A stretch of DNA of 64,000 nucleotides from Nitrosopumilus sp. (lineage in GTDB: Archaea > Thermoproteota > Nitrososphaeria > Nitrososphaerales > Nitrosopumilaceae): assembly GCA_965197525.1 (NCBI GenBank), contig OZ240211.1:1472001-1536000 (forward strand). Direction: 5' to 3'. The notes under the pieces are model-generated. The model did not search any database. It was not told the origin of the DNA and worked only from the letters and a program-made list of their open reading frames with translations. Shown piece by piece: positions 10,384 through 24,628 of the stretch. The stretch's first letter is position 1. Each line of letters starts with the position of its first letter. The position numbers and the translations under genes are program-made.

Positions 10384-12195
<1,812 letters not shown>

Positions 12196-12250: not shown

Positions 12251-13903
12251 ATGGCATCGATTCAACAAGGACCAAATGGGCCTGTACTTGTCCTCAAAGA
12301 GAGCGCGTTACAACAAAAAGGTAAAGATGCTCAACAAAATAACATTGCAGCAGCAAAACTAGTTGCACAACTCGTTAGAAGCAGTCTTGGTCCTAGAGGT
12401 TTAGACAAGATGCTCGTTGATTCCTTGGGCGATGTAACTATTACAAATGATGGCGCTACAATTCTCAAAGAGATTGATGTTCAACATCCTGCAGCCAAGA
12501 TGATGGTTGAAATTTCTAAAACCGTAGACAACGAGGTTGGCGATGGTACTACCTCTTCTGTTATATTTGGCGGTGCTTTGCTAGCTAGAGCAGAAGATCT
12601 TCTCAACAAGGATGTTCACTCTTCAACTATAATTGACGGTTATCAGGCTGCAGCAGACAAAACTCTTGAAATCTATTCTGAATTAGCAAAAAAGATCCAA
12701 CATGACGACCGCGAATCACTATTACAAATCGCTACAACAAGTATGCAATCAAAATTAGTATCTGAGGATAGTGATGCCCTCTCAAAAATTGTTGTTGATG
12801 CTGTTTTAAGCATTGTAGTTAAGAATGGTGATAATTACGTAGTTGATCTAGATAATATCAAAGTAGAGAAAAAATCAGGCGGCTCAATATCTGATACTCA
12901 AATTATTAAAGGAATTGTTCTTGATAAAGAGATTGTTCACAGTGGCATGCCTACAAAGACGGAGAATGCCAAAATTGCATTAATCAACTCTGCATTAGAG
13001 ATTGAAAAGACCGAATTGAGTGCAGAGATTAGAATATCTGACCCAACACAGATGCAGATGTTCCTAGAAGAAGAGAATAGAATGTTAAAGACGATGGTTG
13101 ACAAATTACATGATGTGGGTGCCAATGTCCTGATATGTCAAAAAGGAATTGACGATATCTCTCAGCACTACCTTGCAAAGTATGGTATTATGGCAGTACG
13201 TCGTGTCAAAGAGAGCGATATGACAAAACTTGCAAAGGCTACAGGTGGACGAGTAATAAACAACCTTGATGATCTTACTGAAAATGATCTTGGTCATGCT
13301 GATTTGGCACATCAAAAGAAGGTTGAATCTGACAAGTGGGTTTTCATTGAAGGGTGCAAACATCCGCTATCAGTCACTTTGCTGATTCGTGGTGGTACAC
13401 AGCGACTAATTGATGAAGTTGACCGCTCTATTCATGATTCTTTAATGGTAGTAAAAGACGTTATTGAAACACCTGCAATTGTTGCAGGCGGCGGTGCCCC
13501 AGAAGCATATGTGGCATCTTTGCTCAAAAATTGGGCTGATAGCTTTGATGGAAGAGAGCAGTTGGCAATTAAAAAATATGCTGAAGCATTAGAGACTATA
13601 CCACTTACCATTGCTGAAAATGCCGGAATGGATCCCATTGATACAATGGCTAATCTGCGAGCAAAACAGAACCAAAACCAAAAGTGGACTGGAATTGATG
13701 CTAGAAATATGAAGATTGCAGATATGATGCCACTAGGCGTTATAGAACCAATTACAGTAAAAGAGCAGATAATCAAATCTGCTACAGAGGCTGCATGCAT
13801 GATACTGCGAATTGATGATGTAATTGCAGTATCGGGCGGTCCTGGAGGTGGCGGCGGTCCTGGTGCCGGTGGTATGCCGCCTGGCATGCCTGGAATGGGC
13901 TAG
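12251..13903 (+). CDS. ths: Thermosome (group II chaperonin) subunit, canonical
   Basis: [34 protein letters not shown]-type Gly/Met/Pro tail. Confidence 0.96.
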
Positions 13904-13948: not shown

Positions 13949-13998
13949 TATAGTCTGATACTGTACTGGCAGTCTAACTAAACTAATTATCTATCTAG

Positions 13999-14286
13999 GT
14001 AATTGTGTAATTTTTTGACGTGATTTTTAACCTTTAAAAATAATATTTTGATCTTAGGTTATCTGAAACCACGATTACAGTGTTTAATTATGTCCAACGA
14101 CACAGTCGAAGATCACTGGAAGCATAGATATGAAAAATTAGAGCGTCAGATGAAGGAAGAGATGGCCAAGAAGACAAAAAGATAGATAAATTGGAGGAAA
14201 TGGTAAACAGGTTGGAAGGACTGCTTGCCAATGCAGTTAACCAGATAAAGACAATTACACTTGAGATGAGTCGTGCAAAAGAGGCT
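13999..14286 (+). mobile_element. IS66 remnant, left copy (left end plus 5' of transposase)
   Basis: About 94% identical to 23943..24227; encodes MSNDTVEDHWKHRYEKLERQMKEEMAK/DKKIDKLEEMVNRLE coiled coil. Confidence 0.8.
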
Positions 14287-14320
14287 GCCGCTGCTGCGGT
14301 AAATGCAAGAAATATAGTTT

Positions 14321-16009
14321 CTAATAATACTGATGCATCTGCCTCTGCTCTAACCCCTCTTGCTCAAAGTGGTTATGCGACTTGCCTCCGTCATGATGTG
14401 CATGAACTGTTCCGTCAATATGGCAATGTGTGTTATCAATCAAATCCTTGATAAACACATCATCCACGTTTAGCAGCATGTTGACAGTCTCAACTGCAGT
14501 TATCAGGACTTGCTGTTTTACAACTGCGGTCTCCATAATTTGATGGAGCGACATGTCAGACACTTTTCTTGTAGCAGCGTCTATCCCGCACCACTTGACG
14601 TTGCTATTAGACAGCGTTTGGAGTTGTGTAAATGTGTCAATTACATCCATTCCTATATTTTGGGCCAGTGTCAACGGTATCTGCTCAAGGGCGCTTGCAA
14701 ATCTTTGCATTCCGATCTGCTCCTTGCCGGGAACAGACAATGAGTGATCTTTAATCTCTTGCGCAATCAGCCATTCGACAGAGCCTGCACCGCGTACAAC
14801 AAATGGACTTTGAATAAAATTGCGTAGCACATAAAATGCGTTCAAGACATTCCTGTGGAATTCGTCAAGATAGCGCTTAGAGTTTGCCCTTAACAACAAA
14901 GTTACGGATTTTGGATTACTGTCATTGCTGCTCTCAATGAAGACCATGCTGTCACCCCCGACAGTTCTCTGATAGACATTCTTTGCAAGACCTAACTCAG
15001 CATCCGATATTTCATGTATACTCTTGCATGTTTTCGCGGCAGTTGCTTTTTCCAGCCACCACAGATCATTGTACTTTACACGACGCATCGAGATGATGCC
15101 ATGTTTTGCAAGTTTGGTTTGAACATACTCACTTACGCCCTTTCTTGACACCACTACGTTGGCTCCAGAGTCTACGATGCACCCTACTAGCGCAAGCAGG
15201 TCTGTATCCTCTTGGTCAATGAATGAGCCCATCTGGCTGGGGGAGGTAATCTCTATCTGAGATTCGGTCCTTGTCCTCATGGTCTCCAGTGGATCATTTA
15301 GCAGTAAAATTTTGGCATCAATAATGCTTTTGGGCATCGCAGAGCTGTCTATTGTCTTGTCAATGACTATGCCCCTGACTAGTTCGGTGTCAAGAATGCT
15401 ACCAAGCTTTTCCTCAATCTTTATGTCATCCACACTGATCTTTCCGTTCTGCAGATCAGCTACGCTACACACCGCATCAACGATGGTCTCAACGATTTGT
15501 TCAGGATTATCATGCAAGTCAAATATTGCTTTTCCTCCAAGACACGTAACTAGCAGACGCCTCATCATTTCCCTGTCTGTCCGGTTTGCCACCGTCTTAA
15601 TTTTTTCCAATACATTCAGGGCATATTCAAGGCTTTGCTCGTATGACTTTACAATTGCGGCTACAGGAAATTGCATTTTTAACAGCGTCTCGGCTTGGCC
15701 GATCAGACTACCTATCAGGACAGATGCGGATGTCGTGCCATCTCCAACATGGGTGTCAACGATATTTACAGCGTCCACAACAGACTTGCCTGCGGGATGA
15801 AGAACATCTGTCTTTCTTAAAAATGCACCGCCGTGGCCTGTTATCGTCTCTTCCCCAAGTATGTCAATATACATTTTTTCCATGCCGCGCGGCCCCAGAG
15901 ACGTCTTTATGATATCAGTGACAAGTCTTCCTGACATCAGGTTGTATTTTTGTGAGTCCTGCAGTCCAACACGTGAAATATCACCATCGAGAAGATCAGG
16001 ATATTTCAT
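14321..16009 (-). CDS. Divergent group II chaperonin (thermosome-like) with His-rich C-terminal tail
   Basis: Colinear with ths; GPRGMEKM and GDGTTS kept, but TND is TGH and HD is LN; tail HCHIDGTVHAHHDGGKSHNH. Confidence 0.9.
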   Translation of the reverse strand: MKYPDLLDGDISRVGLQDSQKYNLMSGRLVTDIIKTSLGPRGMEKMYIDILGEETITGHGGAFLRKTDVLHPAGKSVVDAVNIVDTHVGDGTTSASVLIGSLIGQAETLLKMQFPVAAIVKSYEQSLEYALNVLEKIKTVANRTDREMMRRLLVTCLGGKAIFDLHDNPEQIVETIVDAVCSVADLQNGKISVDDIKIEEKLGSILDTELVRGIVIDKTIDSSAMPKSIIDAKILLLNDPLETMRTRTESQIEITSPSQMGSFIDQEDTDLLALVGCIVDSGANVVVSRKGVSEYVQTKLAKHGIISMRRVKYNDLWWLEKATAAKTCKSIHEISDAELGLAKNVYQRTVGGDSMVFIESSNDSNPKSVTLLLRANSKRYLDEFHRNVLNAFYVLRNFIQSPFVVRGAGSVEWLIAQEIKDHSLSVPGKEQIGMQRFASALEQIPLTLAQNIGMDVIDTFTQLQTLSNSNVKWCGIDAATRKVSDMSLHQIMETAVVKQQVLITAVETVNMLLNVDDVFIKDLIDNTHCHIDGTVHAHHDGGKSHNHFEQEGLEQRQMHQYY

Positions 16010-16192
16010 TTAACTTTCCAGAGCATATGTAGTATTAAAACATAGCAGCTGTTGGCGTCATCTAAAAAATTATAATTCATGCATAACTAAAAACTTTATA
16101 AAAATTATCTTCATTTTTTCAGGTTGCATACAGGTACAAAATGTATTTGACAAAAAAGACACACAAACAATTTTGTTGGCAGGCAGATGATC

Positions 16193-17782
16193 TCAAAGTT
16201 TGCTGTCACTCGTTATGACATCGTCAGGTCCCGGAGTGTCGGGCGTGCTAGATGCTGTAAGTCCGGAACCGTCATTCTCCTTGAAATGCTTCAGATCCTC
16301 TCCTGTGATTACGTCCTCTTCTGGAGGCACATAATCCCGTATATCGTGTCTTGCCTTTCCTGGGTACTTGTCTTGTGTCACAAGTGCTACAATCACAAAT
16401 AGCGCAATCCCGATGGCAGGTGCTATCATGGCCTCTATTCCCGCCAGCTCCTCAGGCGTGATAAAGAACATAATCAGCCTGACGGCCGAGCCTGTGATAA
16501 GGCACGCCATGGCAGCAGGCATGTTTGCCTTTTTCCAGAACAGGCCAAACGTTAGCGGTCCAAACGCTCCTGCAAGCACAATGTCAAATGCCAGTACAAG
16601 ATAAATTCCAGGGGCCGGTGCAAGATATCCGATGGTTGTCCCAGCTATCATCATCGGCACAAGTACGATACGGGTAACATTGAGCAGTTTGCGATCGCTC
16701 CAGTTTGCCTGCCCCATCCATCGTCGCCGAATTATTCTTTGCGTCAAGTTTCTTGATATGACACTTGATATTGCCAGCAGCCCTCCACTGGCAGTAGACA
16801 TGGACGCGCCGATAACTCCCATCAGTATGGCCGCCCCTATTGCAAACGGTAAGAACTGTGTGGATAGTATAGGAAGCGCCAGCGCCGGATCGGTGTCACC
16901 TGGCAGGAAATAGAATGCCACTATTCCTAACATACTTGTTGGAATTATCGTAAACATTGTCAGCATGCCTCCCATGAATGCTCCTCTTTGGGCAGTCTTG
17001 GGATTTTTGGCAGAGAATACACGTTCCATAAAGTCAAGTGCAATGATATCCCCTAGCCCCAATGCAAGAAGGGCACCCCAGTTGATTAACGCACCGTTTG
17101 CAATATCATACAGTCCTGAAAGATCTAGGAACTCTGGCGGAGCTGCACTGTATATGATGTCCCATGGAACTTCTGAAAAACCGCCAAAGAAGAATAGGAA
17201 TGCGGCCCAAAACGATCCTATGGCAAGATATACCTGAAATAGATTGGTATAAGCTGATGCAAACAGTCCGCCTGCAATTGTGTAGGCAACTATTACACTA
17301 GCTGCAATCGTTATTCCCCAAAAGTAATCTATGCCAAAAACAACCTGTAGGATAAATCCACTGGCAGCCAGATTACCTGCAACAAGAATGAGAAAGCCGA
17401 TGATCAGGAGAATGCTGGAGATTCCTTCAGCGCCGTTGCCGAATCTTCTGAAATAAAAATCAGGTAGCGTAATCATCGACATCTTGTTCAGGGGCTTGGC
17501 ATAAAATATGGCCACTATAAACAGACACACTCCAAGACCTAGTGGAACAACTGCCCCTGCCCAAAATCCAAACTCAAAGACCAGTGCGATATTTCCAAGC
17601 GACGAGTTCCCGTCTACTGCCTGAGCTGCAAGCATTGTTCCCACCATAAATAAAGGCAGACTTTTTCCTGCAACTATCAGTCTCTTGCCGCTATGTCTGA
17701 CTAGCCTGCCTGCAAATACTCCAACTACAAGTGTAATAATTATAAAAGCTGCAACTGCGATACCAAAACCGTCCAGTTCCAT
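16193..17782 (-). CDS. Sodium:solute symporter (SSS) family transporter
   Basis: About 13 hydrophobic segments; YTIAGGLFASAYT, ERVFSAK, AILMGVIGASMSTASG, GLFWKKAN. Confidence 0.9.
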   Translation of the reverse strand: MELDGFGIAVAAFIIITLVVGVFAGRLVRHSGKRLIVAGKSLPLFMVGTMLAAQAVDGNSSLGNIALVFEFGFWAGAVVPLGLGVCLFIVAIFYAKPLNKMSMITLPDFYFRRFGNGAEGISSILLIIGFLILVAGNLAASGFILQVVFGIDYFWGITIAASVIVAYTIAGGLFASAYTNLFQVYLAIGSFWAAFLFFFGGFSEVPWDIIYSAAPPEFLDLSGLYDIANGALINWGALLALGLGDIIALDFMERVFSAKNPKTAQRGAFMGGMLTMFTIIPTSMLGIVAFYFLPGDTDPALALPILSTQFLPFAIGAAILMGVIGASMSTASGGLLAISSVISRNLTQRIIRRRWMGQANWSDRKLLNVTRIVLVPMMIAGTTIGYLAPAPGIYLVLAFDIVLAGAFGPLTFGLFWKKANMPAAMACLITGSAVRLIMFFITPEELAGIEAMIAPAIGIALFVIVALVTQDKYPGKARHDIRDYVPPEEDVITGEDLKHFKENDGSGLTASSTPDTPGPDDVITSDSKL

Positions 17783-18142
17783 AATTATACATGTTGAAAA
17801 AATTATATAAATATGCGATTTTGACTGTAAAATACGTTTTATACTCTAAAAAACAATACGTATAATACATTTTTTGTTAAAATTCATGTAAATTTTACAA
17901 TATAAAGAAATTTGGATAATGGTTACGACAAGTTCAAACGCGGTTTAATGGCAAAAAAAAATAGATGTGTTTTTGAGAAATGTGTAGTATAATGATGATG
18001 CAATAAGAATGCAGTTTACATATAAGAAAACAATTCGGAGAGATAGCGGCAAAAGAAATTACCAAGCTTGTTTAAAAGATAAGACAGCTATGCTCTGCAA
18101 TCCAATTCAAAATTTTATTAGTTTGGCACTGTTAAAAACGGC

Positions 18143-18316
18143 ATGGACAAGCAATACGCTTTTGCAGTCATACTAATCATCATTGGAGTTGGGTTAAGCC
18201 AGTCCGGAACAGGCGATTCTTTTTTTATAGGTCTTGGTGTTGGAACTGTAATAATGGGTTCGTTTTGGGTATTGATCAGAATAATAAAAGAGATCAAAAA
18301 GAAAGAGCAAAAATAA
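18143..18316 (+). CDS. Small two-TM membrane protein (57 aa), not in track
   Basis: MDKQYAFAVILIIIGVGLSQSGTGDSFFIGLGVGTVIMGSFWVLIRIIKEIKKKEQK; positive-inside tail. Confidence 0.6.
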   Translation: MDKQYAFAVILIIIGVGLSQSGTGDSFFIGLGVGTVIMGSFWVLIRIIKEIKKKEQK

Positions 18317-18358
18317 AAACAGATCGTGAAAAAAATATAAACTATAATCTGTGAATTA

Positions 18359-18886
18359 ATGCAAATGCCTGCAAAAGGATATGCCACAATTGGTTTGAAA
18401 CCTGCAATTCTAAAAAAGCTGCACGAAGTGACAGACAAAAGCTATCCTGGAATGTTCCTGCCCAGCACACTAATTATCATGATGAATGAGATCAAGAACG
18501 GGTCATACTCTGTAGAGTTGCACAACATTAGACTGGATTTGTCAGGTCACTACAACACTATAACCATCAGATTGGATGTGCAACAATGGCTAGAAGAAAA
18601 TCACAAGAAGTTGAGTGCAGAGTATGAGGAGAGATACAGGATAAAATCTTTTACAAAATTCGTGAGCTACTTTATTATCAACGCACTTGAGTCAAAGCTT
18701 AACAGTCAAAACCACACCATCAACCTAAAAGAGTCAGACTACGAATGGCTGCAAAAAGAGTACAATAAACACAAGGAAGGCATTACCGACTTTCAAGAGG
18801 TTCCAAGCTTTGACAAGTTTGCGGACATTTACATTAATAATTTGTTTGAGAAGATCAAGGCTGCAAAAAAGATCTTGACGATATAA
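18359..18886 (+). CDS. Hypothetical protein, possibly a tandem ribbon-helix-helix DNA-binding protein
   Basis: Three units TIGLKPAILKKL / TITIRLDVQQWL / TINLKESDYEWL; start may be 18365. Confidence 0.7.
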   Translation: MQMPAKGYATIGLKPAILKKLHEVTDKSYPGMFLPSTLIIMMNEIKNGSYSVELHNIRLDLSGHYNTITIRLDVQQWLEENHKKLSAEYEERYRIKSFTKFVSYFIINALESKLNSQNHTINLKESDYEWLQKEYNKHKEGITDFQEVPSFDKFADIYINNLFEKIKAAKKILTI

Positions 18887-19258
18887 GATGTCTGATTCAG
18901 CTGGTGGTTGCAAAGACGCCAAACACAACAAAGACTGATCCGCCAAAACGCCGCCATTATTTTTTTTTTAAGAAAACCAGGGGATAAGGTACAAAAAGAC
19001 AGATGATAGATGTACAGATAGGCACAAATATCTGAAAATTTGCTAAAAAGACTGCTTGTACGCAGTAGCCAGATATATGAAAACTGTTTTCAGGACATAG
19101 TGATACCCAAACAACAAGTTTTTCAAGCAATGTCAAGTTTCAGGGTCACGTTTGATTAGATCTAAGAAGACATATGACGATTCATAGATACCAAAAATCT
19201 ACATGTGATGTTTGCGGTAACACATAGTTATGACGAGTCAAACTCCAAATAAGAAAAA

Positions 19259-19510
19259 TTAGAGTGGAACCATTGTATCAATCAATCGTGCGTTAGTGAC
19301 TTGTCCATCTTTTTCCTGCATCTCAAGGTCTACCGTATATTTTAGAGAGTTCAGCATGAAATTAACCTGAATGTCCCATGCCTCTCTAGTTCCTTTTTCA
19401 GGTACTGCAAACGTCTCGTTGACTCTAAAGTCACTTACGTCTCCATACAATGCATTGATCACTCTTTTGGATTCTCGATATATGTCGTCATTCGTACTTA
19501 CTTTTTGCAT
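19259..19510 (-). CDS. Small hypothetical protein
   Basis: MQKVSTNDDIYRESKRVINALYG..; second ATG (19510) preferred to track start 19531. Confidence 0.7.
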   Translation of the reverse strand: MQKVSTNDDIYRESKRVINALYGDVSDFRVNETFAVPEKGTREAWDIQVNFMLNSLKYTVDLEMQEKDGQVTNARLIDTMVPL

Positions 19511-19879
19511 GGTTATACTACATATACTCAAATATAAAAATATTATAAGATGGAAGATGACTGAAATTTTTCAGTGTCTCCACATGCAAGAGATCAGATA
19601 TATTAATAACGCCTTTGAGGCTGCGATCAGCCAACACACGGCAGACGGTTTTGAGAGTCTTTTTTTTTGCAGTGCGCAGATATAACCTCACTGAGAACTT
19701 TAATGCCTATGCAAGATAATCTTTAACAGTATGACAAGTTTTATCAAAGATTTTTTTTTTTTGAGATTTGGGACAAGGCAAGATCTGCTTTGCATTGTTG
19801 CCGTCATTTATCTGAGAATGTCCACGGTATGCAGGTGTGTGGACAAAATAAATTGTTTGTATATCTCTTGCAGTAAGAT

Positions 19880-21133
19880 CTATAGGCCGCCAAATTTTTT
19901 TGAAAGCGGCACGCGGTTTATTTTTGCCAATTCTGCCTCAGCCTTATATTTATGATAAAGCGCAGTTTGGTTTTCAGGATCAATTGCAAGGGCCTTGTCA
20001 TACCATTTCAGAGACAGATCGTATTTTTCGAGTCGCAAGAACAGTTTTCCTTTGTAGCTTAGTGCGTATACATAATTTGGGTTAATTGCAAGGGCCTTGT
20101 CGCAGTACTCTAGTGCCTCAGTGTATTTTTTAGAATGCTCCAACAGCCATACCATGCTACACAACGCAGTAATATTTTGAGGCTCGATATCAAGTGCACG
20201 CTGACAATAAAATCTTGCAGCAGCAAAGTGCTTCATCGAAAACAGCGATACACCCTTGCTGTAAAGTGCCCGTGTGTTAGTTGAGTCATACTCTAGAACT
20301 TTATCAAAACATTTCGCGGCTTTTTTGTAAAGTCCCGTCCTGTCCAGAACCAGACCCTTGTTTATCCATGCATCAGTGCATCGAGGGTCAATCTCCAAAG
20401 CCCTGTCATAAAATACAAAGATCTCCTTGTTTGAGAATCCAGCAAAATCAAGTATCCATCCTTTGGCCACAAGCGCCTTTGTATTTTTGTTGTTTATCTC
20501 AAGAGCTTTGGTATAGAATTTTATTGCATCCTTGTGTTTTTTCTGTTTTGTGAGTTTTTGTCCTTGTTCATAGAGTTTATCAGATTGCGCGGAATCCTCT
20601 GCGATGGCACGGTTTAAAAACAATATTGATTCAGAACTCCTATCTAGCTTTCCCAATATCATGCTCTTGTTGTAAAGTGCAGAAGCGTTGTTTGGATTAG
20701 ATGACAAAATCCGTTCGGTTATTTCAAGTGCCTTGTCGTATTGGCCCAACTTGTAAAAGCACAGTCCCATCAATATCAACGAATCAGTGTATGTACAGTC
20801 AATATCAAGCGATCTCTGAAAGCAGCGTATGGCCTTGTCGTACTGTTTCGTCTTTTCAAGCGCAACCCCTTTGGCGTACAAGGTATCTATGCTTTTTGGA
20901 TCAGATGACAAAATGTGATCAAAGCATACTATGGCCTTTTGAAACTTTTCCATTTTATTGAGCGTTATGCCTTTGTGGAGATATGCCGTATGGTTGTCAG
21001 GATCAACGGAGATGGATTTGTCAAACTTTGAGACAGCCTTTTTGTAGTCATTGTAATAGATGGCAGTCAATCCCTGATTCAAGAAATACCACGAGTTCTT
21101 TGAATTTTTTAACAGCATGATTACTTGACGCAA
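19880..21133 (-). CDS. Tetratricopeptide-repeat protein (about 11 TPRs)
   Basis: Repeated ~34-aa units A-x3-KG..Y-x2-A-x3-(F/Y)DKAL-x-I(D/N)P. Confidence 0.92.
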   Translation of the reverse strand: MRQVIMLLKNSKNSWYFLNQGLTAIYYNDYKKAVSKFDKSISVDPDNHTAYLHKGITLNKMEKFQKAIVCFDHILSSDPKSIDTLYAKGVALEKTKQYDKAIRCFQRSLDIDCTYTDSLILMGLCFYKLGQYDKALEITERILSSNPNNASALYNKSMILGKLDRSSESILFLNRAIAEDSAQSDKLYEQGQKLTKQKKHKDAIKFYTKALEINNKNTKALVAKGWILDFAGFSNKEIFVFYDRALEIDPRCTDAWINKGLVLDRTGLYKKAAKCFDKVLEYDSTNTRALYSKGVSLFSMKHFAAARFYCQRALDIEPQNITALCSMVWLLEHSKKYTEALEYCDKALAINPNYVYALSYKGKLFLRLEKYDLSLKWYDKALAIDPENQTALYHKYKAEAELAKINRVPLSKKFGGL

Positions 21134-21535
21134 GTGATATTTTTATCTTTGAATCGTATATTACGGATATGGTCTCGTTCTTGACGGTTTTTACTTGATG
21201 CGGGAAAGATATGCACATGACATAATCTAATTTGAGGACAGGAGGTTGAGAGTATGCACGGTATAGATTTTTCAGACAACAAGAGCTGTCATCTAGGGCG
21301 TTGCAGGTGTTTTTGATCAGATGAAAAATGGTACGCGTTCAGGTTGTCTGAGAAAACTTTGCAGTTTAGGCGGTGTGGCATGCTTTGAGAACATTTCTAG
21401 TCTTCCCAGGCACAGTGCAAACACGTGCAAAAAACGCAATATAGGAAGTATTTTGAAAATTTTGCAGTTTAAATGCAAAACCAAAGCCTACTTGGAAGAA
21501 CGGTCTGTTTTCCAGGCAAAGGTAAAGATACAGCC

Positions 21536-22294
21536 CTAGTTCAATAAAAACAGGTCGGATTTCAGCCCAACTGTAAATATGATGTTTATTCCGACAACCA
21601 GCGTTACACCAGCTATGGCGTATCTGACATACTTGGCGGCAAGATGAATTTTTGGCAGCAATAACATAAATGAGATTCCCAAAACACCACTGGCAAGGGA
21701 CATGCCAACTATGCTGCCAATACCAAACAGGACTAGGAAGTAAACCACAATGTCAAAACTACCCATTGTGGATGCAGCAAGCGCTACAATACTGCCGCTT
21801 CCTGCAAGGCCGTGAATGCAACCTATTATGTATGACTTGTGGCCGTGCTTGTGATCCGTATTGTGCGTGTGGGGATGGGTGTGAGAGATTCCGTTTGGAT
21901 GCTTGTGTGAATGTGTATGTTTTTGCCTTAGAATGCTTTTGTTAGCGGCTGTCATAACCCCCAAAAATATCAGCATAGAACCCACTATAACTTCCGCACT
22001 CAAAAAGAAAGTGTCAGATATACTCAATGAGAGACCTGCAATCAGCAGGCCGATCAATACGATGCTGGATGTATGCCCCATTCCCCACAGCATGCCTTTG
22101 AAGGAAGAGAAGACTGTCAGGATTTTTAGATTCGTTTTTTTCGAGGTACGGTTGTTGTTATCGTTTAGAACCTGTGTAGAGACCGCACTGATATGATCAG
22201 GCTCAAAAGCATGTACCAGTCCGATCACAAGACCTGCAACGAGTATCAAGAAAGGATTGTTTGCTTGTAATATTTCAATCAACACATCAATCAT
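21536..22294 (-). CDS. NiCoT/UreH-like nickel-cobalt transport or urease-accessory membrane protein
   Basis: HAFEPDH (H-x4-DH) signature, WGMGHT, loop with 11 His, HGLAGS. Confidence 0.85.
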   Translation of the reverse strand: MIDVLIEILQANNPFLILVAGLVIGLVHAFEPDHISAVSTQVLNDNNNRTSKKTNLKILTVFSSFKGMLWGMGHTSSIVLIGLLIAGLSLSISDTFFLSAEVIVGSMLIFLGVMTAANKSILRQKHTHSHKHPNGISHTHPHTHNTDHKHGHKSYIIGCIHGLAGSGSIVALAASTMGSFDIVVYFLVLFGIGSIVGMSLASGVLGISFMLLLPKIHLAAKYVRYAIAGVTLVVGINIIFTVGLKSDLFLLN

Positions 22295-22767
22295 TACAAG
22301 GTACCCCCGGACGGCGGTTCTGATTGAATGAAGGGATATTCGTTGATATGGATGGGTGCTGTGACCAAAATTGTCTTGACATGATCGTTGTAATGAGCAT
22401 CAATATTGTTGCCATCACCATCACCATCACCATCATCAGATACAGCACCTGCATCATTTGCAATAATCGTAAAGGTCAGCTCCCTTAGGCTCTCAGGAAC
22501 GCCAATCATGACTTGATGCGGCAACAGAATCTTTGGAATATGGTTTTGGATTTCATCGACTGCCTTGCCTTCATTCAGTGAGAGTATAACATATGCAACA
22601 AACAGTTCCAAGACTTGGTCTACGTTTAGCCTCATATTATTTAGAAGACTGTCTTTGATCTGCTGAACAGATGCTAGAAATATCGATTCATCAGACGCGT
22701 CATAATGAAATACCCTGATAAACGACTCGGTGTCCGGATCTCCTTGTACGGAGACTTTGATCTCCAT
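22294..22767 (-). CDS. Urease gamma-subunit-like protein
   Basis: RLNVDQ..NEGKAVDEI..ILLPHQVMIGVPESL..ILVTAPI follows the UreA pattern; 1-nt stop/start overlaps on both sides. Confidence 0.7.
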   Translation of the reverse strand: MEIKVSVQGDPDTESFIRVFHYDASDESIFLASVQQIKDSLLNNMRLNVDQVLELFVAYVILSLNEGKAVDEIQNHIPKILLPHQVMIGVPESLRELTFTIIANDAGAVSDDGDGDGDGNNIDAHYNDHVKTILVTAPIHINEYPFIQSEPPSGGTL

Positions 22768-23882
22768 TAACTTCTCTCAGGTATTTTAGAGGTCGAATTA
22801 CCAAAACTGTATGTGTTTCCAGTTCCCCGATAATCGTTAGGCCTTACCGGATCTCCTCCATCAAGCCCTCGCTTTGTTAGTGATAATCCAGCTAAAAGCT
22901 CTATAACCAGTCTTTGTCCCAGTCCAGATGTAATGCCTCCATTGTAAGAACTGTTATCGCTTACGTCGTATGCAGGTGAGATCTCTACTAGATCCATTGC
23001 AAATCTGTCAGGATCAAATGACTTTGATAGCAGTCGTATCATTCTAATCCCTTCCCTTGATGTAAGGCCGTTTGGCTCAGGCTCGCCGGTACCTGGTGCA
23101 TAAGCAGGATCAAAAGAGTCGATATCCCAACTAAGGTACACTGCATCAGTCCCGTCATTTGCCCTGTCTGCTATCTCTTTGGCAATGTAATCAATTCCCA
23201 GTTCTTCAACATCAAGCATTGTAAACCATTGAAAGTCTTGATCCGCCATCCATTTGTACAGATCACGGCCAGGCCAGTATCCTCTTGGACCCACTAGAGA
23301 GTAGTTTCTTCCCTTCAGACAGCCCATTTCCATTATTCTTCTGATATGTGCACCATGGTCGTATTTGAAACCTGTCAGGCCTTGGGGGGCACAATCTGCG
23401 TGGGTATCAAAGTGAATCATACCAATGTTCTTGTATTTTTTTGCAAAAGCCCGAACATTTGCATAAGTAATAGAATGATCCCCTCCAAGCATTACAGGAA
23501 TGCCATCTGCCTCTAACACCTCTTTGACCTTCAGGGTCATTCTTTTGTGCGACTCTATAACATCGCCTGGCGAGACTATGACATCACCATAGTCAACTGT
23601 TCTGAAAGTGCCAAACGGATCTGCACCCGTCTCGATATTGAACCTCTCAAATGGTGGGGAGGGCACAGTTGATGCCGCCCTTATTGCCCTTGGACCGTAT
23701 CGCGCACCAGGACGAATGGTTGTGCCAAAATCAAATGGTTCTCCGATAATTGCAACATCAGGTTTTGCCTGTAGTAACTCTTTGTGGTTTTTTATCAATG
23801 GAAGATGCAAAAATGTATTAATTCCTACAAATGGTGCAACATCTGCACCCTGAAAATCCTCACCGTAAAATTCTGCACCCAT
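22767..23882 (-). CDS. Ureohydrolase (agmatinase/guanidino-hydrolase family), substrate unknown
   Basis: RPGARYGP, GGDHS, DTHAD, HG, DIDSFDP, PGTG; all binuclear metal ligands present. Confidence 0.92.
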   Translation of the reverse strand: MGAEFYGEDFQGADVAPFVGINTFLHLPLIKNHKELLQAKPDVAIIGEPFDFGTTIRPGARYGPRAIRAASTVPSPPFERFNIETGADPFGTFRTVDYGDVIVSPGDVIESHKRMTLKVKEVLEADGIPVMLGGDHSITYANVRAFAKKYKNIGMIHFDTHADCAPQGLTGFKYDHGAHIRRIMEMGCLKGRNYSLVGPRGYWPGRDLYKWMADQDFQWFTMLDVEELGIDYIAKEIADRANDGTDAVYLSWDIDSFDPAYAPGTGEPEPNGLTSREGIRMIRLLSKSFDPDRFAMDLVEISPAYDVSDNSSYNGGITSGLGQRLVIELLAGLSLTKRGLDGGDPVRPNDYRGTGNTYSFGNSTSKIPERS

Positions 23883-23942
23883 TTTAACAGAGATTGTAAG
23901 CTCTTTTGATTATTAAGTATTGCATGTAAAATACGCATTTTT

Positions 23943-24560
23943 GTAATTGCATAGTTTTTTGAAGTGATTTTTAACCTTAAATAATATTTTGATCTTAGGT
24001 TATCTGAAACCACGATTACAGTGTTTAATTATGTCCAACGACTCAACCGAAGATCATTGGAAGCATAGATATGAAAAATTAGAGCGTCAGATAAAGGAAG
24101 AGATGGCCAAGAAGACAAAAAGATAGATAAATTGTAGGAAATGGTAAACAAGTTGGAAGGACTGCTTACCAATGCAGTTAACCAGATAAAGACAATTACA
24201 CTTTAGATGAATAGTGCAAAAGAGGCTTCATTCTTGCCCTCATCAACAGGCTCAAAGGAGAGAAATACAAGCATTGCAACAGGATGCTCAAGAGGATCAG
24301 AAGAGAGAAAGGCCACCTGTTTACGTTACTTGAGGTTGAAAGAATGAGTGACATGACAACTCTGTAGAGAGGGAGAGGGGGCATCAGACAGTGCGTCATA
24401 CTGCGCAATAACAGCTATGGGAGCAGGTCCGAAGAATGGGCATCGGCCATAGTAGTGTTGATGAGTGTAAAACAAACCTGCAAGGCAAAGAACAATAATT
24501 TGTTCGATGATGTAATGCGCATGAATTTGTTCAAAACGTGTCAAAAAACTACCTAGTTGC
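23943..24560 (+). mobile_element. Internally deleted IS66 (618 bp) retaining both ends
   Basis: 5' part as the left copy; then frameshifted transposase C-terminus RMLKRIRREKGHLFT..DNSVER..IRQCVILRNNSYGSRSEE..LMSVKQTCK (NNxAERxLR..GxRS..SxxxTC pattern). Confidence 0.88.
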
Positions 24561-24628
24561 CTATCTAGTTATTTCCCTACACTAATATCACTTTCCTGAA
24601 AGCTTAACTATTCTGATCTCATAATTTA

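What the first reader, a model, noticed from the sequence alone, without database searches (positions are those of the whole stretch)
14321..16009. Predicted hydrolysis-dead group II chaperonin with a His/Cys-rich tail
Compared with the canonical ths 400 bp away, the P-loop GDGTT is kept, but both Asp residues that activate the attacking water (GroEL D52/D398; Mm-Cpn D60/D386) are replaced: TND>TGH and SIHD>NVLN (seen). The usual GGM tail, which faces the chamber, is replaced by 8 His plus 1 Cys. Inference: a subunit that binds but does not hydrolyse ATP, may co-assemble with the housekeeping thermosome, and presents metal inside the cage to fold or load the co-mobilised metallo-ureohydrolase. 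I know of no described system of this kind.
Basis: partly seen in the sequence, partly recalled or inferred. Interest (0 to 1): 0.9.

Follow-up and report, generated by a model that had tools for sequence, protein, structure and literature searches.

The report
His-tailed thermosome paralogue in ureohydrolase cluster
This gene encodes a special extra copy of the archaeal protein-folding cage, found only in some ammonia-oxidising archaea, that has swapped its usual tail for an almost invariant histidine motif, has lost both ATP-splitting residues in this lineage, and always travels with a nickel-transporter/ureohydrolase gene cluster, so it probably helps load metal into that enzyme rather than fold proteins in general.

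Summary
GDGTT is kept, H59 replaces Mm-cpn D60, N390 replaces D386, and the 43-residue tail holds 8 His and 1 Cys.

It is not decay: dN/dS is 0.10-0.15. The His-tailed proteins form one clade (SH-aLRT 100).

The clade-defining feature is the tail, HxHxDGxxHxH...HxH...G..QR..H..Y, invariant down to 41% identity. Loss of the aspartates is not universal. Basal members keep both, two lineages lost one each independently, and only the main Nitrosopumilaceae subclade has His+Asn (122 of 123).

The gene is accessory (49 of 121 family genomes). It co-occurs with one arginase-family ureohydrolase (48 of 49), usually within 13 kb, alongside a urease-gamma-like protein, an SSF transporter, a likely RHH regulator and usually a NicO-type transporter and a TPR protein. 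These genomes are nearly all urease-positive. Urease-positive genomes without the hydrolase lack the chaperonin.

Here the cluster is a 10.56-kb insertion, so its place beside the canonical ths is accidental.

Best reading: a metal-handling (probably Ni) chaperonin serving the ureohydrolase. Metal binding, ATPase loss and client are all inferred.

One paper noted the gene in passing. This scan has flagged the family before on other genomes.

The parts
14321..16009 (-). His-tailed thermosome paralogue (CpnHis, P0001, 562 aa)
   Evidence: Intact ORF. Cpn60_TCP1 match 1-486/490 at 420.8 bits. AlphaFold model pLDDT 85.8, pTM 0.81, three domains plus lid helix 257-281. dN/dS 0.10-0.15.
14324..14452 (-). 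C-terminal tail, residues 520-562, with the invariant motif HxHxDGxxHxH...HxH...G..QR..H..Y
   Evidence: 8 His and 1 Cys. Invariant across 20 homologues down to 41% overall identity: H528 H530 D532 G533 H536 H538 H545 H547 G552 Q555 R556 H559 Y562. pLDDT below 50 in the metal-free model.
15833..15835 (-). Codon of H59, at the position of Mm-cpn D60 / GroEL D52
   Evidence: Alignments. His in 122 of 123 His-tailed homologues and Asp in 111 of 133 other group II representatives.
14840..14842 (-). Codon of N390, at the position of Mm-cpn D386 / GroEL D398
   Evidence: Alignments. Asn in 122 of 123 His-tailed homologues. Asp in 94 and Asn in 21 of 133 others.
15731..15745 (-). Retained phosphate-binding loop GDGTT (residues 89-93)
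   Evidence: The Asp of GDGT is invariant in all 123 clade members, and the nucleotide-sensing-loop Lys is also invariant.
16193..17782 (-). SSF-family sodium:solute symporter, immediately upstream and co-oriented
   Evidence: Pfam SSF. Clustered with CpnHis in L005, L006, L010, L011, L013-L016, L018, L021, L022, L025. Only close copy in the genome. Nearest solved relative is the choline transporter CHT1.
18359..18886 (+). Conserved 175-aa cluster protein, probable tandem ribbon-helix-helix regulator
   Evidence: 49-98% identical orthologues in nine related clusters. Model pLDDT 81 with two beta-alpha-alpha units. Only weak fold matches to tandem-RHH proteins TraY, VirC2 and AvtR, E >= 0.027.
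19880..21118 (-). 412-aa TPR protein
   Evidence: Pfam TPR_1 and related families. Orthologues in related clusters, with short TPR proteins in the basal and f3 clusters.
21536..22294 (-). NicO-type (Ni/Co) transporter with an (HX)n loop
   Evidence: Pfam NicO, 28.7 bits, above its cut-off. His-rich loop seen in the translation. Within 3 kb of the hydrolase, or next to CpnHis, in about 44 of 53 hydrolase-bearing family genomes.
22294..22767 (-). Urease-gamma-like 157-aa protein; its start overlaps the stop of the hydrolase gene
   Evidence: Urease_gamma E 0.0016 here and 1.2e-7 for the L005 counterpart. Always next to the hydrolase.
22767..23882 (-). Arginase-family ureohydrolase (P0275, 371 aa), the likely client or beneficiary
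   Evidence: Pfam Arginase 269.6 bits. One of three family members in the genome. Best solved relatives: guanidinobutyrase 3nio, 7esr/7oi1 'Probable agmatinase 2', and metformin hydrolase. 74-95% identical across three families. dN/dS 0.006-0.023.
13991..24568 (.). 10,562-bp inserted element (13999-24560) carrying the whole cluster, with 8-bp direct duplication CTATCTAG (13991-13998 and 24561-24568)
   Evidence: Imperfect terminal inverted repeats and a ~288-bp direct repeat (13999-14286 and 23943-24227). The same ends occur in L022. Empty sites, with ths and ROK genes 26-60 bp apart, in five same-genus complete genomes.

Best explanation
The gene encodes a functional, accessory paralogue of the thermosome that arose by duplication within ammonia-oxidising archaea. 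It has been recruited to a ureohydrolase gene cluster.

It keeps the full three-domain, lidded group II fold and the nucleotide-binding motifs. Its cavity-facing C-terminal tail has been replaced by a strictly conserved seven-histidine motif.

Proposed mechanism (inferred):
1. The subunits form a chaperonin ring, either alone or mixed with housekeeping subunits.
2. The 8-16 tails at the ring equator bind a divalent metal, most likely Ni(II), supplied by the co-encoded NicO-type transporter.
3. The cage holds the newly made arginase-family hydrolase, and possibly urease, while the binuclear site is metallated.

In the main Nitrosopumilaceae subclade, including this window, both water-activating Asp residues are replaced by His and Asn. 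ATP is therefore probably bound but hydrolysed slowly or not at all. The protein would then act as a holdase/metallochaperone, or as a low-activity subunit of a mixed ring.

The cluster as a whole probably imports a small guanidino-type cation and releases urea or ammonia for energy metabolism.
For: Shown:
- Intact, high-confidence group II fold with lid.
- Purifying selection, dN/dS 0.10-0.15.
- One clade with a long stem, placed next to the canonical AOA thermosomes.
- The tail motif is invariant across the clade and better conserved than the body: 84% against 54% mean column identity.
- GDGT Asp and the sensing-loop Lys are invariant, while D60>H and D386>N are fixed in 122 of 123.
- Family sample: 48 of 49 chaperonin-bearing genomes carry the same hydrolase. 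35 of these 48 have both genes on one contig, 1.3-23.5 kb apart, and 34 are within 12.8 kb.
- Class sample: 37 of 37 chaperonin-bearing genomes carry the hydrolase, and a 38th chaperonin copy is cut by a contig end.
- Gene order is shuffled, yet the genes stay clustered in two families.
- The NicO-type transporter is adjacent in about 44 of 53 hydrolase-bearing genomes.
- 47 of 49 chaperonin-bearing genomes are urease-positive. The 14 urease-positive genomes without the hydrolase also lack the chaperonin.
- In this genome the whole cluster moved as one 10.56-kb unit.

From established knowledge:
- Mm-cpn D386A binds ATP but cannot hydrolyse it (PMC5019054).
- Group II termini point into the cavity.
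- His-rich chaperonin tails bind metal in GroEL1 (PMC10170517, 10.1101/766162) and HspA (PMC3856676).
- The nearest solved relatives of the hydrolase include metformin hydrolase and 7esr/7oi1. From my own recall, both of these are Ni-dependent enzymes; this was not checked here.
Against: No metal binding, ATPase rate, oligomer state or client has been measured.

The tail could bind Zn, Cu or Co rather than Ni.

Basal clade members in the same cluster keep both catalytic Asp, so ATPase loss is not required for the function.

Asn at the D386 column occurs in 21 of 133 other group II representatives, so Asn may not abolish activity. The perfectly coupled His+Asn change could be a remodelled active site rather than a dead one.

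Two genomes of a third family carry the hydrolase/NicO/UreA-like/SSF/TPR cluster with no His-tailed chaperonin found. The hydrolase can therefore exist without it.

In many Nitrosopumilaceae the urease operon lies between the chaperonin and the hydrolase, so urease is an alternative client.

The genome also has UreE-like and UreG genes.
Confidence: 0.5

Rival explanations
1. The client is urease, not the arginase-family enzyme. The His-tailed chaperonin would be a nickel donor or stabiliser for urease assembly. This would parallel H. pylori HspA and the Hsp60 homologue reported in urease loci of other AOA.
For: 47 of 49 chaperonin-bearing genomes are urease-positive. In many, for example G013/L015, G008, G032, G005, G115 and G107, ureC lies within a few kb, often between the chaperonin and the hydrolase. 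Urease is an established Ni enzyme. Abby et al. 2018 (PMC5797428) report an Hsp60 homologue in AOA urease loci. Zhong et al. 2020 (PMC7265257) saw the extra thermosome near urease genes.
Against: 14 urease-positive genomes in the sample, at least five of them single-contig, lack the chaperonin, and they also lack the hydrolase.

In the second family the chaperonin sits with the hydrolase cluster about 2 Mb from urease. Urease there has its own, different Hsp60: 519 aa, both Asp kept, no His tail, on a separate long branch.

In this genome the cluster moved without urease, which lies about 1 Mb away.
Confidence: 0.2
2. It is a metal buffer or store with no specific client. The ring would simply display about 130 histidines to sequester Ni, Cu or Zn and protect the cell, as proposed for mycobacterial GroEL1 and copper.
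For: The tail is (HX)n-like and includes Cys in the main subclade. GroEL1 is a precedent (10.1101/766162, PMC10170517). Loss of the ATPase residues fits a non-folding role.
Against: A general buffer would not be expected to track one hydrolase gene in 48 of 49 genomes and stay within about 13 kb through rearrangements. AOA depend on copper universally, yet the gene is patchy, in 49 of 121 genomes. The apical lid and substrate-binding body remain under purifying selection.
Confidence: 0.15
3. It is a remodelled but active ATPase. His59 would take over as general base and Asn390 would position the water, so the protein would still be a cycling foldase with a specialised client range.
For: The two changes are perfectly coupled, His+Asn in 122 of 123. 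The rest of the nucleotide pocket (GDGT Asp, sensing-loop Lys, LGPRG) stays invariant. Asn at the D386 column is fairly common in other group II homologues, 21 of 133.
Against: Mm-cpn D386A blocks hydrolysis while ATP still binds (PMC5019054). The equivalent GroEL mutations abolish most hydrolysis (from my own knowledge). Other lineages of the clade lost one or the other Asp in different ways (D>N, D>S), which looks like relaxed constraint rather than redesign.
Confidence: 0.25
4. It is a stress (high-pressure, cold or heat) isoform of the thermosome with no link to nitrogen or metal metabolism, as suggested for the hadal MAG.
For: Zhong et al. 2020 (PMC7265257) proposed a pressure-adaptation role. 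HSP20, Usp and CDC48 genes lie near some clusters.
Against: The gene occurs in 18 of 27 genera of the family and in a second family with 1.7-3.4 Mb genomes. It always accompanies the hydrolase cluster. A stress isoform would not be expected to lose its catalytic residues.
Confidence: 0.04

Closest known systems
Canonical archaeal thermosome / Mm-cpn (group II chaperonin, Pfam PF00118)
   Same: Full-length homology and the three-domain fold with a built-in helical lid. GDGTT loop and sensing-loop Lys are present. It lies next to the canonical AOA thermosomes in the tree.
   Different: Both water-activating Asp residues are replaced (H59, N390). GGG has become GAG. The Gly/Met tail is replaced by an invariant His motif. 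The gene is accessory and cluster-bound rather than core. It scores below the TIGR02339 cut-off, 450 against 671.
Mycobacterial GroEL1 (Cpn60.1) with a His-rich C-terminus (PMC10170517; bioRxiv 10.1101/766162)
   Same: A non-essential chaperonin paralogue whose GGM tail is replaced by a His-rich, metal-binding tail facing the cavity. A role in metal handling rather than bulk folding has been proposed.
   Different: GroEL1 is a group I chaperonin and its tail binds Cu. This protein is group II, has an ordered, invariant motif rather than a His run, has lost its catalytic Asp residues, and is tied to one enzyme cluster.
Helicobacter pylori HspA (GroES with a His/Cys-rich C-terminal domain) (PMC3856676, PMC8779794)
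   Same: A chaperonin-system protein with a His/Cys tail that handles nickel for Ni enzymes such as urease.
   Different: HspA is the co-chaperonin lid of a group I system and is essential. Here the tail sits on the cage subunit of a group II system that has no GroES.
Hsp60 homologue in urease loci of Nitrosocaldus and Nitrososphaerales (Abby et al. 2018, PMC5797428)
   Same: A divergent thermosome-family paralogue of AOA sitting in the locus of a metal-dependent nitrogen-releasing hydrolase.
   Different: It is a different paralogue: 519 aa, keeps both Asp and GGG, has no His tail, and sits on a separate very long branch. That paper reported its urease-locus Hsp60 as not found in Nitrosopumilales. 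The His-tailed paralogue described here is a different protein that is common there.
Low-ATPase subunits of eukaryotic CCT/TRiC
   Same: Paralogous group II subunits that contribute little ATP hydrolysis to a mixed ring. From my own knowledge, catalytic-Asp mutations in these subunits are tolerated.
   Different: All CCT subunits keep the Asp residues naturally. Whether this protein enters mixed rings is unknown.
Extra thermosome of hadal MAG MTA1 (Zhong et al. 2020, PMC7265257)
   Same: Probably the same gene family. [quoted passage not shown]
   Different: The passages I read present it as a pressure adaptation and do not mention the tail, the catalytic residues or the ureohydrolase link. 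I did not compare the sequences directly.

Membership tests
Group II chaperonin (thermosome/CCT) | Full-length Cpn60_TCP1 homology above the curated cut-off | tested here: met
   PF00118 at 420.8 bits against a cut-off of 34.3, positions 1-486/490. NF041082 thermosome_alpha at 465.5 against a cut-off of 450.
Group II chaperonin (thermosome/CCT) | Score above the archaeal thermosome subfamily cut-off (TIGR02339) | tested here: not met
   450.2 bits against a cut-off of 671.1. The canonical neighbour scores 738.4.
Group II chaperonin (thermosome/CCT) | Built-in helical-protrusion lid in the apical domain | tested here: met
   Ungapped alignment through the lid region of Mm-cpn. The model shows a long helix at 257-281 after a protruding loop.
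Group II chaperonin (thermosome/CCT) | Nucleotide-binding motifs (LGPRG, GDGTT, sensing-loop Lys) | tested here: met
Group II chaperonin (thermosome/CCT) | Catalytic Asp pair (Mm-cpn D60 and D386) | tested here: not met
   H59 and N390, fixed in 122 of 123 clade members sampled. Basal clade members keep one or both.
Group II chaperonin (thermosome/CCT) | Double-ring 8- or 9-mer assembly and ATP-driven folding cycle | not testable with these tools
   Needs native MS or cryo-EM and ATPase/refolding assays.
His-rich nickel metallochaperones (functional class: UreE, HypB, SlyD, HspA tails) | His-rich segment that binds Ni(II) | tested here: inconclusive
   Seven invariant His plus Asp in a fixed pattern. 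Binding was not measured.
His-rich nickel metallochaperones (functional class: UreE, HypB, SlyD, HspA tails) | Genomic linkage to a Ni transporter and a Ni enzyme | tested here: met
   A NicO-type transporter is adjacent in about 44 of 53 hydrolase-bearing genomes. The distribution is nested within urease-positive genomes. Ni use by the hydrolase itself is not shown.
Urease-locus Hsp60 homologue of AOA (Abby et al. 2018) | Same orthologous group | tested here: not met
   The urease-adjacent paralogue of G229/G239 (P0278) falls on a separate branch, keeps both Asp residues and lacks the tail.

The most novel reading that the evidence does not exclude
A group II chaperonin has been converted into a cage-type nickel insertase. 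It would bind ATP, barely hydrolyse it, and present a ring of invariant His motifs inside the chamber. It would be needed for full activity of a so far unrecognised Ni-dependent guanidino-compound hydrolase. Together with urease, that enzyme would give a large fraction of marine and soil ammonia-oxidising archaea access to a new organic nitrogen and energy source, and the whole cluster can move as a unit.
Probability: 0.3. Interest if true: 0.85.

Novelty: new variant of a known kind. Interest (0 to 1): 0.7.

Why it matters
Group II chaperonins are regarded as general ATP-driven foldases. I found no description of a natural, conserved lineage that replaced both catalytic aspartates and acquired a fixed metal-binding tail. 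Such a lineage would show that the cage can be turned into a client-specific metallochaperone, as already suspected for group I (GroEL1, HspA).

The gene also marks a conserved, mobile cluster in about 40% of sampled Nitrosopumilaceae and in part of a second family. That cluster is built around an extraordinarily constrained arginase-family enzyme (dN/dS about 0.01), with its own transporter and a Ni/Co-type permease, and it is nested in urease-positive genomes.

Ammonia-oxidising archaea drive nitrification in oceans and soils. A recent survey found no known guanidine-degradation genes in them (PMC11410670). This cluster is a concrete candidate for an overlooked organic-nitrogen pathway. It offers simple tests: co-expression, metal analysis and a substrate screen.

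Tried and rejected
- Complex prediction of the TPR protein (A2) with the chaperonin tail (A3) gave no verdict (score 0.01). It says nothing either way. The idea that the conserved C-terminal H-x-Y-Y is a TPR docking site remains untested.
- The search for RNA sequencing runs listed no RNA holder, so there is no information on expression.
- I considered that the genome might lack UreE, which would make the tail a UreE substitute. This is rejected: a UreE_N match and UreG are present at 257-259 kb of the genome, although UreE_C was not found.
- I considered that adjacency to the canonical ths indicates a functional pair or tandem duplication. This is rejected: the cluster is an insertion, and in five same-genus genomes ths abuts the ROK gene directly. 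Other genomes have the paralogue far from both canonical copies.
- I considered identity with the urease-locus Hsp60 of Abby et al. This is rejected.
- I considered pseudogene decay. This is rejected.
- The Foldseek search with the 175-aa protein gave only weak matches, best E 0.027.
- The careful ML tree did not finish in the time allowed, so the quick IQ-TREE result was used. One unrelated CDC48 row was included by mistake and served only as a long outgroup.
- Literature searches for a described His-tailed thermosome or for this ureohydrolase cluster in AOA found nothing beyond PMC7265257 and PMC5797428.
Full report
**1. Observation**

The ORF at 14321-16009(-) is intact and encodes 562 aa. 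It matches Pfam Cpn60_TCP1 over the whole profile at 420.8 bits. The canonical thermosome at 12251-13903(+) scores 636.9 bits. The two proteins are 38% identical.

The genome, a single 2.21-Mb contig, has three family members: two canonical (637 and 628 bits) and this one.

- ITNDGAT has become ITGHGGA.
- DRSIHDSL has become HRNVLNAF.
- GDGTT is kept.
- GGG has become GAG.
- The last 43 residues hold 8 His and 1 Cys, where both canonical copies have a Gly/Met tail.

The HMMER alignment to Mm-cpn chains places H59 on residue 60 and N390 on residue 386. An AlphaFold model built on a 37-row alignment is confident (pLDDT 85.8, pTM 0.81). It shows all three domains and the lid helix. The tail (523-562) is below pLDDT 50.

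**2. A real, selected gene family**

The word-index search returned 120 homologues at 63-97% identity, all 549-569 aa. The exhaustive representative search found only two further 50%-clusters that align through the tail, at 55% and 47% identity. Below these the hits drop to ordinary thermosomes at 38% or less.

In a quick ML tree all 24 His-tailed rows form one clade (SH-aLRT 100, stem 0.59), placed next to the canonical AOA thermosomes. Against the two closest relatives, dN/dS is 0.15 and 0.10.

The tail is a defined motif, not low complexity. Thirteen positions are invariant across 20 sequences down to 41% overall identity: H528 H530 D532 G533 H536 H538 H545 H547 G552 Q555 R556 H559 Y562. 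Mean column identity is 84% in the tail alignment and 54% in the full-length alignment A1.

**3. The catalytic losses are subclade-specific**

Of 123 His-tailed sequences from the searches, 122 have His+Asn. All 123 keep the GDGT Asp and the sensing-loop Lys. Deeper members fetched from genomes differ:

| Member | D60 position | D386 position |
|---|---|---|
| P0126/L005 | Asp kept | Asp kept |
| L012 | Asp kept | Asp kept |
| L014 | Asn | Asp kept |
| L010/L011 | Asp kept | Ser |
| Main Nitrosopumilaceae subclade | His | Asn |

The tail is therefore the family's constant, and constraint on hydrolysis has been relaxed several times.

Among 133 other group II representatives, the D386 column is Asn in 21 and the D60 column is not Asp in 22. 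The His+Asn pair is seen only in this clade.

'Hydrolysis-dead' rests on the published Mm-cpn D386A phenotype, which binds ATP but cannot hydrolyse it (PMC5019054). It remains an inference for Asn and His.

**4. Genomic context**

On the same strand, upstream of the chaperonin, lie:
- an SSF transporter (16193-17782);
- a TPR protein (19880-21118);
- a NicO-type transporter (21536-22294);
- a urease-gamma-like protein (22294-22767);
- an arginase-family hydrolase (22767-23882).

A 175-aa protein lies on the other strand (18359-18886).

The same set is clustered, in varying order, in loci from two families. The set comprises the hydrolase, the UreA-like protein, SSF, the 175-aa protein and the chaperonin, usually with TPR and NicO.

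Counts in a sample of 121 genomes of the family:

| Category | Genomes |
|---|---|
| Chaperonin present | 49 |
| Hydrolase orthologue present (79-94% identical) | 53 |
| Both present | 48 |
| Chaperonin only | 1 (a 60%-complete genome) |
| Hydrolase only | 5 (fragmented drafts) |

Of the 48 genomes with both, 35 have them on one contig, 1.3-23.5 kb apart, and 34 are within 12.8 kb. These tallies are my own.

In a class-wide sample of 201 genomes, all 37 chaperonin-bearing genomes carry the hydrolase. A 38th chaperonin copy was cut by a contig end.

The NicO-type gene lies within 3 kb of the hydrolase, or beside the chaperonin, in about 44 of 53 hydrolase-bearing genomes.

**5. Relation to urease**

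ureC is present in 66 of the 121 genomes. It is found in 47 of the 49 chaperonin-bearing genomes; the two exceptions are 76% and 85% complete. The 14 urease-positive genomes without the hydrolase also lack the chaperonin.

In many genomes ureC lies inside or beside the cluster. In this genome it is about 1 Mb away.

In the second family (genomes of 1.7-3.4 Mb) the chaperonin sits with the hydrolase cluster. Urease, about 2 Mb away, has a different Hsp60 paralogue with both Asp kept and no His tail. This is the one described by Abby et al. 2018.

The chaperonin therefore tracks the hydrolase more closely than urease. The whole module is nested in ureolytic genomes, which fits a path from guanidino compound to urea to ammonia.

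Two genomes of a third family have the hydrolase/NicO/UreA-like/SSF/TPR cluster but no His-tailed chaperonin was found. The chaperonin is thus a helper added to a pre-existing cluster, not an absolute requirement.

**6. Mobility**

The cluster lies in a 10,562-bp element (13999-24560). The element has imperfect terminal inverted repeats, a ~288-bp direct repeat near each end and an 8-bp duplication, CTATCTAG. A 10.8-kb contig from another sample carries the same element with the same ends. An 87%-identical copy has the same gene order in another context, without those ends.

In five complete genomes of the same genus, the ths 3' end and the ROK gene are 26-60 bp apart. Here they are 10.7 kb apart.

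'Co-mobilised' is thus supported. The proximity to the canonical ths is an accident.

**7. What the enzyme side suggests**

The hydrolase is one of three arginase-family genes in the genome. It is extremely constrained (dN/dS 0.006-0.023). It is most similar to guanidinobutyrase, to 7esr/7oi1 ('Probable agmatinase 2'), to guanidinopropionase and to metformin hydrolase. From my own recall, 7esr/7oi1 is the Ni-dependent guanidine hydrolase of Synechocystis and metformin hydrolase is also Ni-dependent; neither point was checked here.

The SSF transporter is the only close copy in the genome. Its nearest solved relative is the choline transporter CHT1, a carrier of a small organic cation.

A survey of nitrifiers reported no known guanidine-degradation genes in AOA (PMC11410670).

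**8. Mechanism and rivals**

The best-supported reading is a ring-forming chaperonin whose cavity-facing tails bind metal, probably Ni, and which assists metallation or assembly of the cluster's hydrolase. In this subclade it would have little or no ATP turnover.

The steps shown are homology, fold, selection, motif invariance, co-occurrence, synteny and mobility. The steps inferred are metal binding, which metal, ATPase loss, oligomer state and client.

The rivals are urease as client, a client-less metal buffer, a remodelled but active ATPase, and a stress isoform. They are weighed in the Rival explanations section.

**9. Prior knowledge**

Zhong et al. [quoted passage not shown]

His-rich chaperonin tails are known in group I.

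This scan has flagged the same family on other genomes. One follow-up called it a urease-linked His-tailed paralogue.

- The chaperonin tracks the arginase-family cluster more tightly than urease.
- The Asp losses were independent and subclade-specific, while the tail is invariant.
- The cluster exists without the chaperonin in a third family.
- Empty sites in relatives show that the cluster was inserted as a unit.

Noticed in passing
window 13991-24568: A 10,562-bp element with imperfect terminal inverted repeats, ~288-bp direct repeats and an 8-bp duplication CTATCTAG. I saw no transposase among the ORFs annotated in it. Five same-genus genomes show the empty site, with ths directly beside the ROK gene. 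A third partial copy of the end repeat lies at G000:C1:86390-86534.
   Followed up: yes
window 22767-23882 (-): The arginase-family hydrolase is 74-95% identical across three archaeal families, with dN/dS 0.006-0.023. It is far more constrained than its neighbours. It is not one of the two shorter family members elsewhere in the genome. Its substrate is unknown.
   Followed up: partly
window 22294-22767 (-): A urease-gamma-like 157-aa protein with an acidic DDGDGDGDG insert. Its start overlaps the stop of the hydrolase gene. It evolves fast (dN/dS 0.24-0.30) and is always next to the hydrolase. It may be a subunit or a metal hand-off partner.
   Followed up: partly
window 16193-17782 (-): The SSF transporter has no close paralogue in the genome. 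Its nearest solved relative is the high-affinity choline transporter CHT1, which hints at a small organic cation as substrate.
   Followed up: partly
window 18359-18886 (+): A conserved 175-aa protein of the cluster. The model shows two beta-alpha-alpha units, which suggests a tandem ribbon-helix-helix. It is probably the cluster's regulator. Fold matches are weak.
   Followed up: partly
L019:8298-9857 (G229) and L020 (G239): A second specialised thermosome paralogue lies directly beside ureC in the second family. It is 519 aa, keeps the catalytic Asp residues, has no His tail and sits on a very long branch. AOA therefore have two separate enzyme-linked chaperonin paralogues.
   Followed up: partly
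L023 (G242:C16) and L024 (G255:C10): A third family carries the SSF-TPR-hydrolase-NicO-UreA-like cluster, but no His-tailed chaperonin was found in either genome.
   Followed up: partly
G000:C1:2061502-2062106 (outside the window): Two adjacent fragments, 60-75% identical to the NicO-type transporter, with an in-frame TAG. This is possibly the remnant of an older copy of the cluster. The NicO-type genes of G068 and G116 also carry an in-frame TAA.
   Followed up: no
P0228, P0127, P0128; G071:C2:725268-726977: P0228 is an unrelated group II chaperonin with an acidic His-rich tail and both Asp kept. P0127 and P0128 are about 1050 aa with two chaperonin-like stretches. In G071 the His-tailed gene lies in an 1122-aa open frame, so a fusion is possible.
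   Followed up: no
window 10384-12195 (+): An adenine-deaminase homologue with a run of about 15 Glu residues inserted between its two domains.
   Followed up: no
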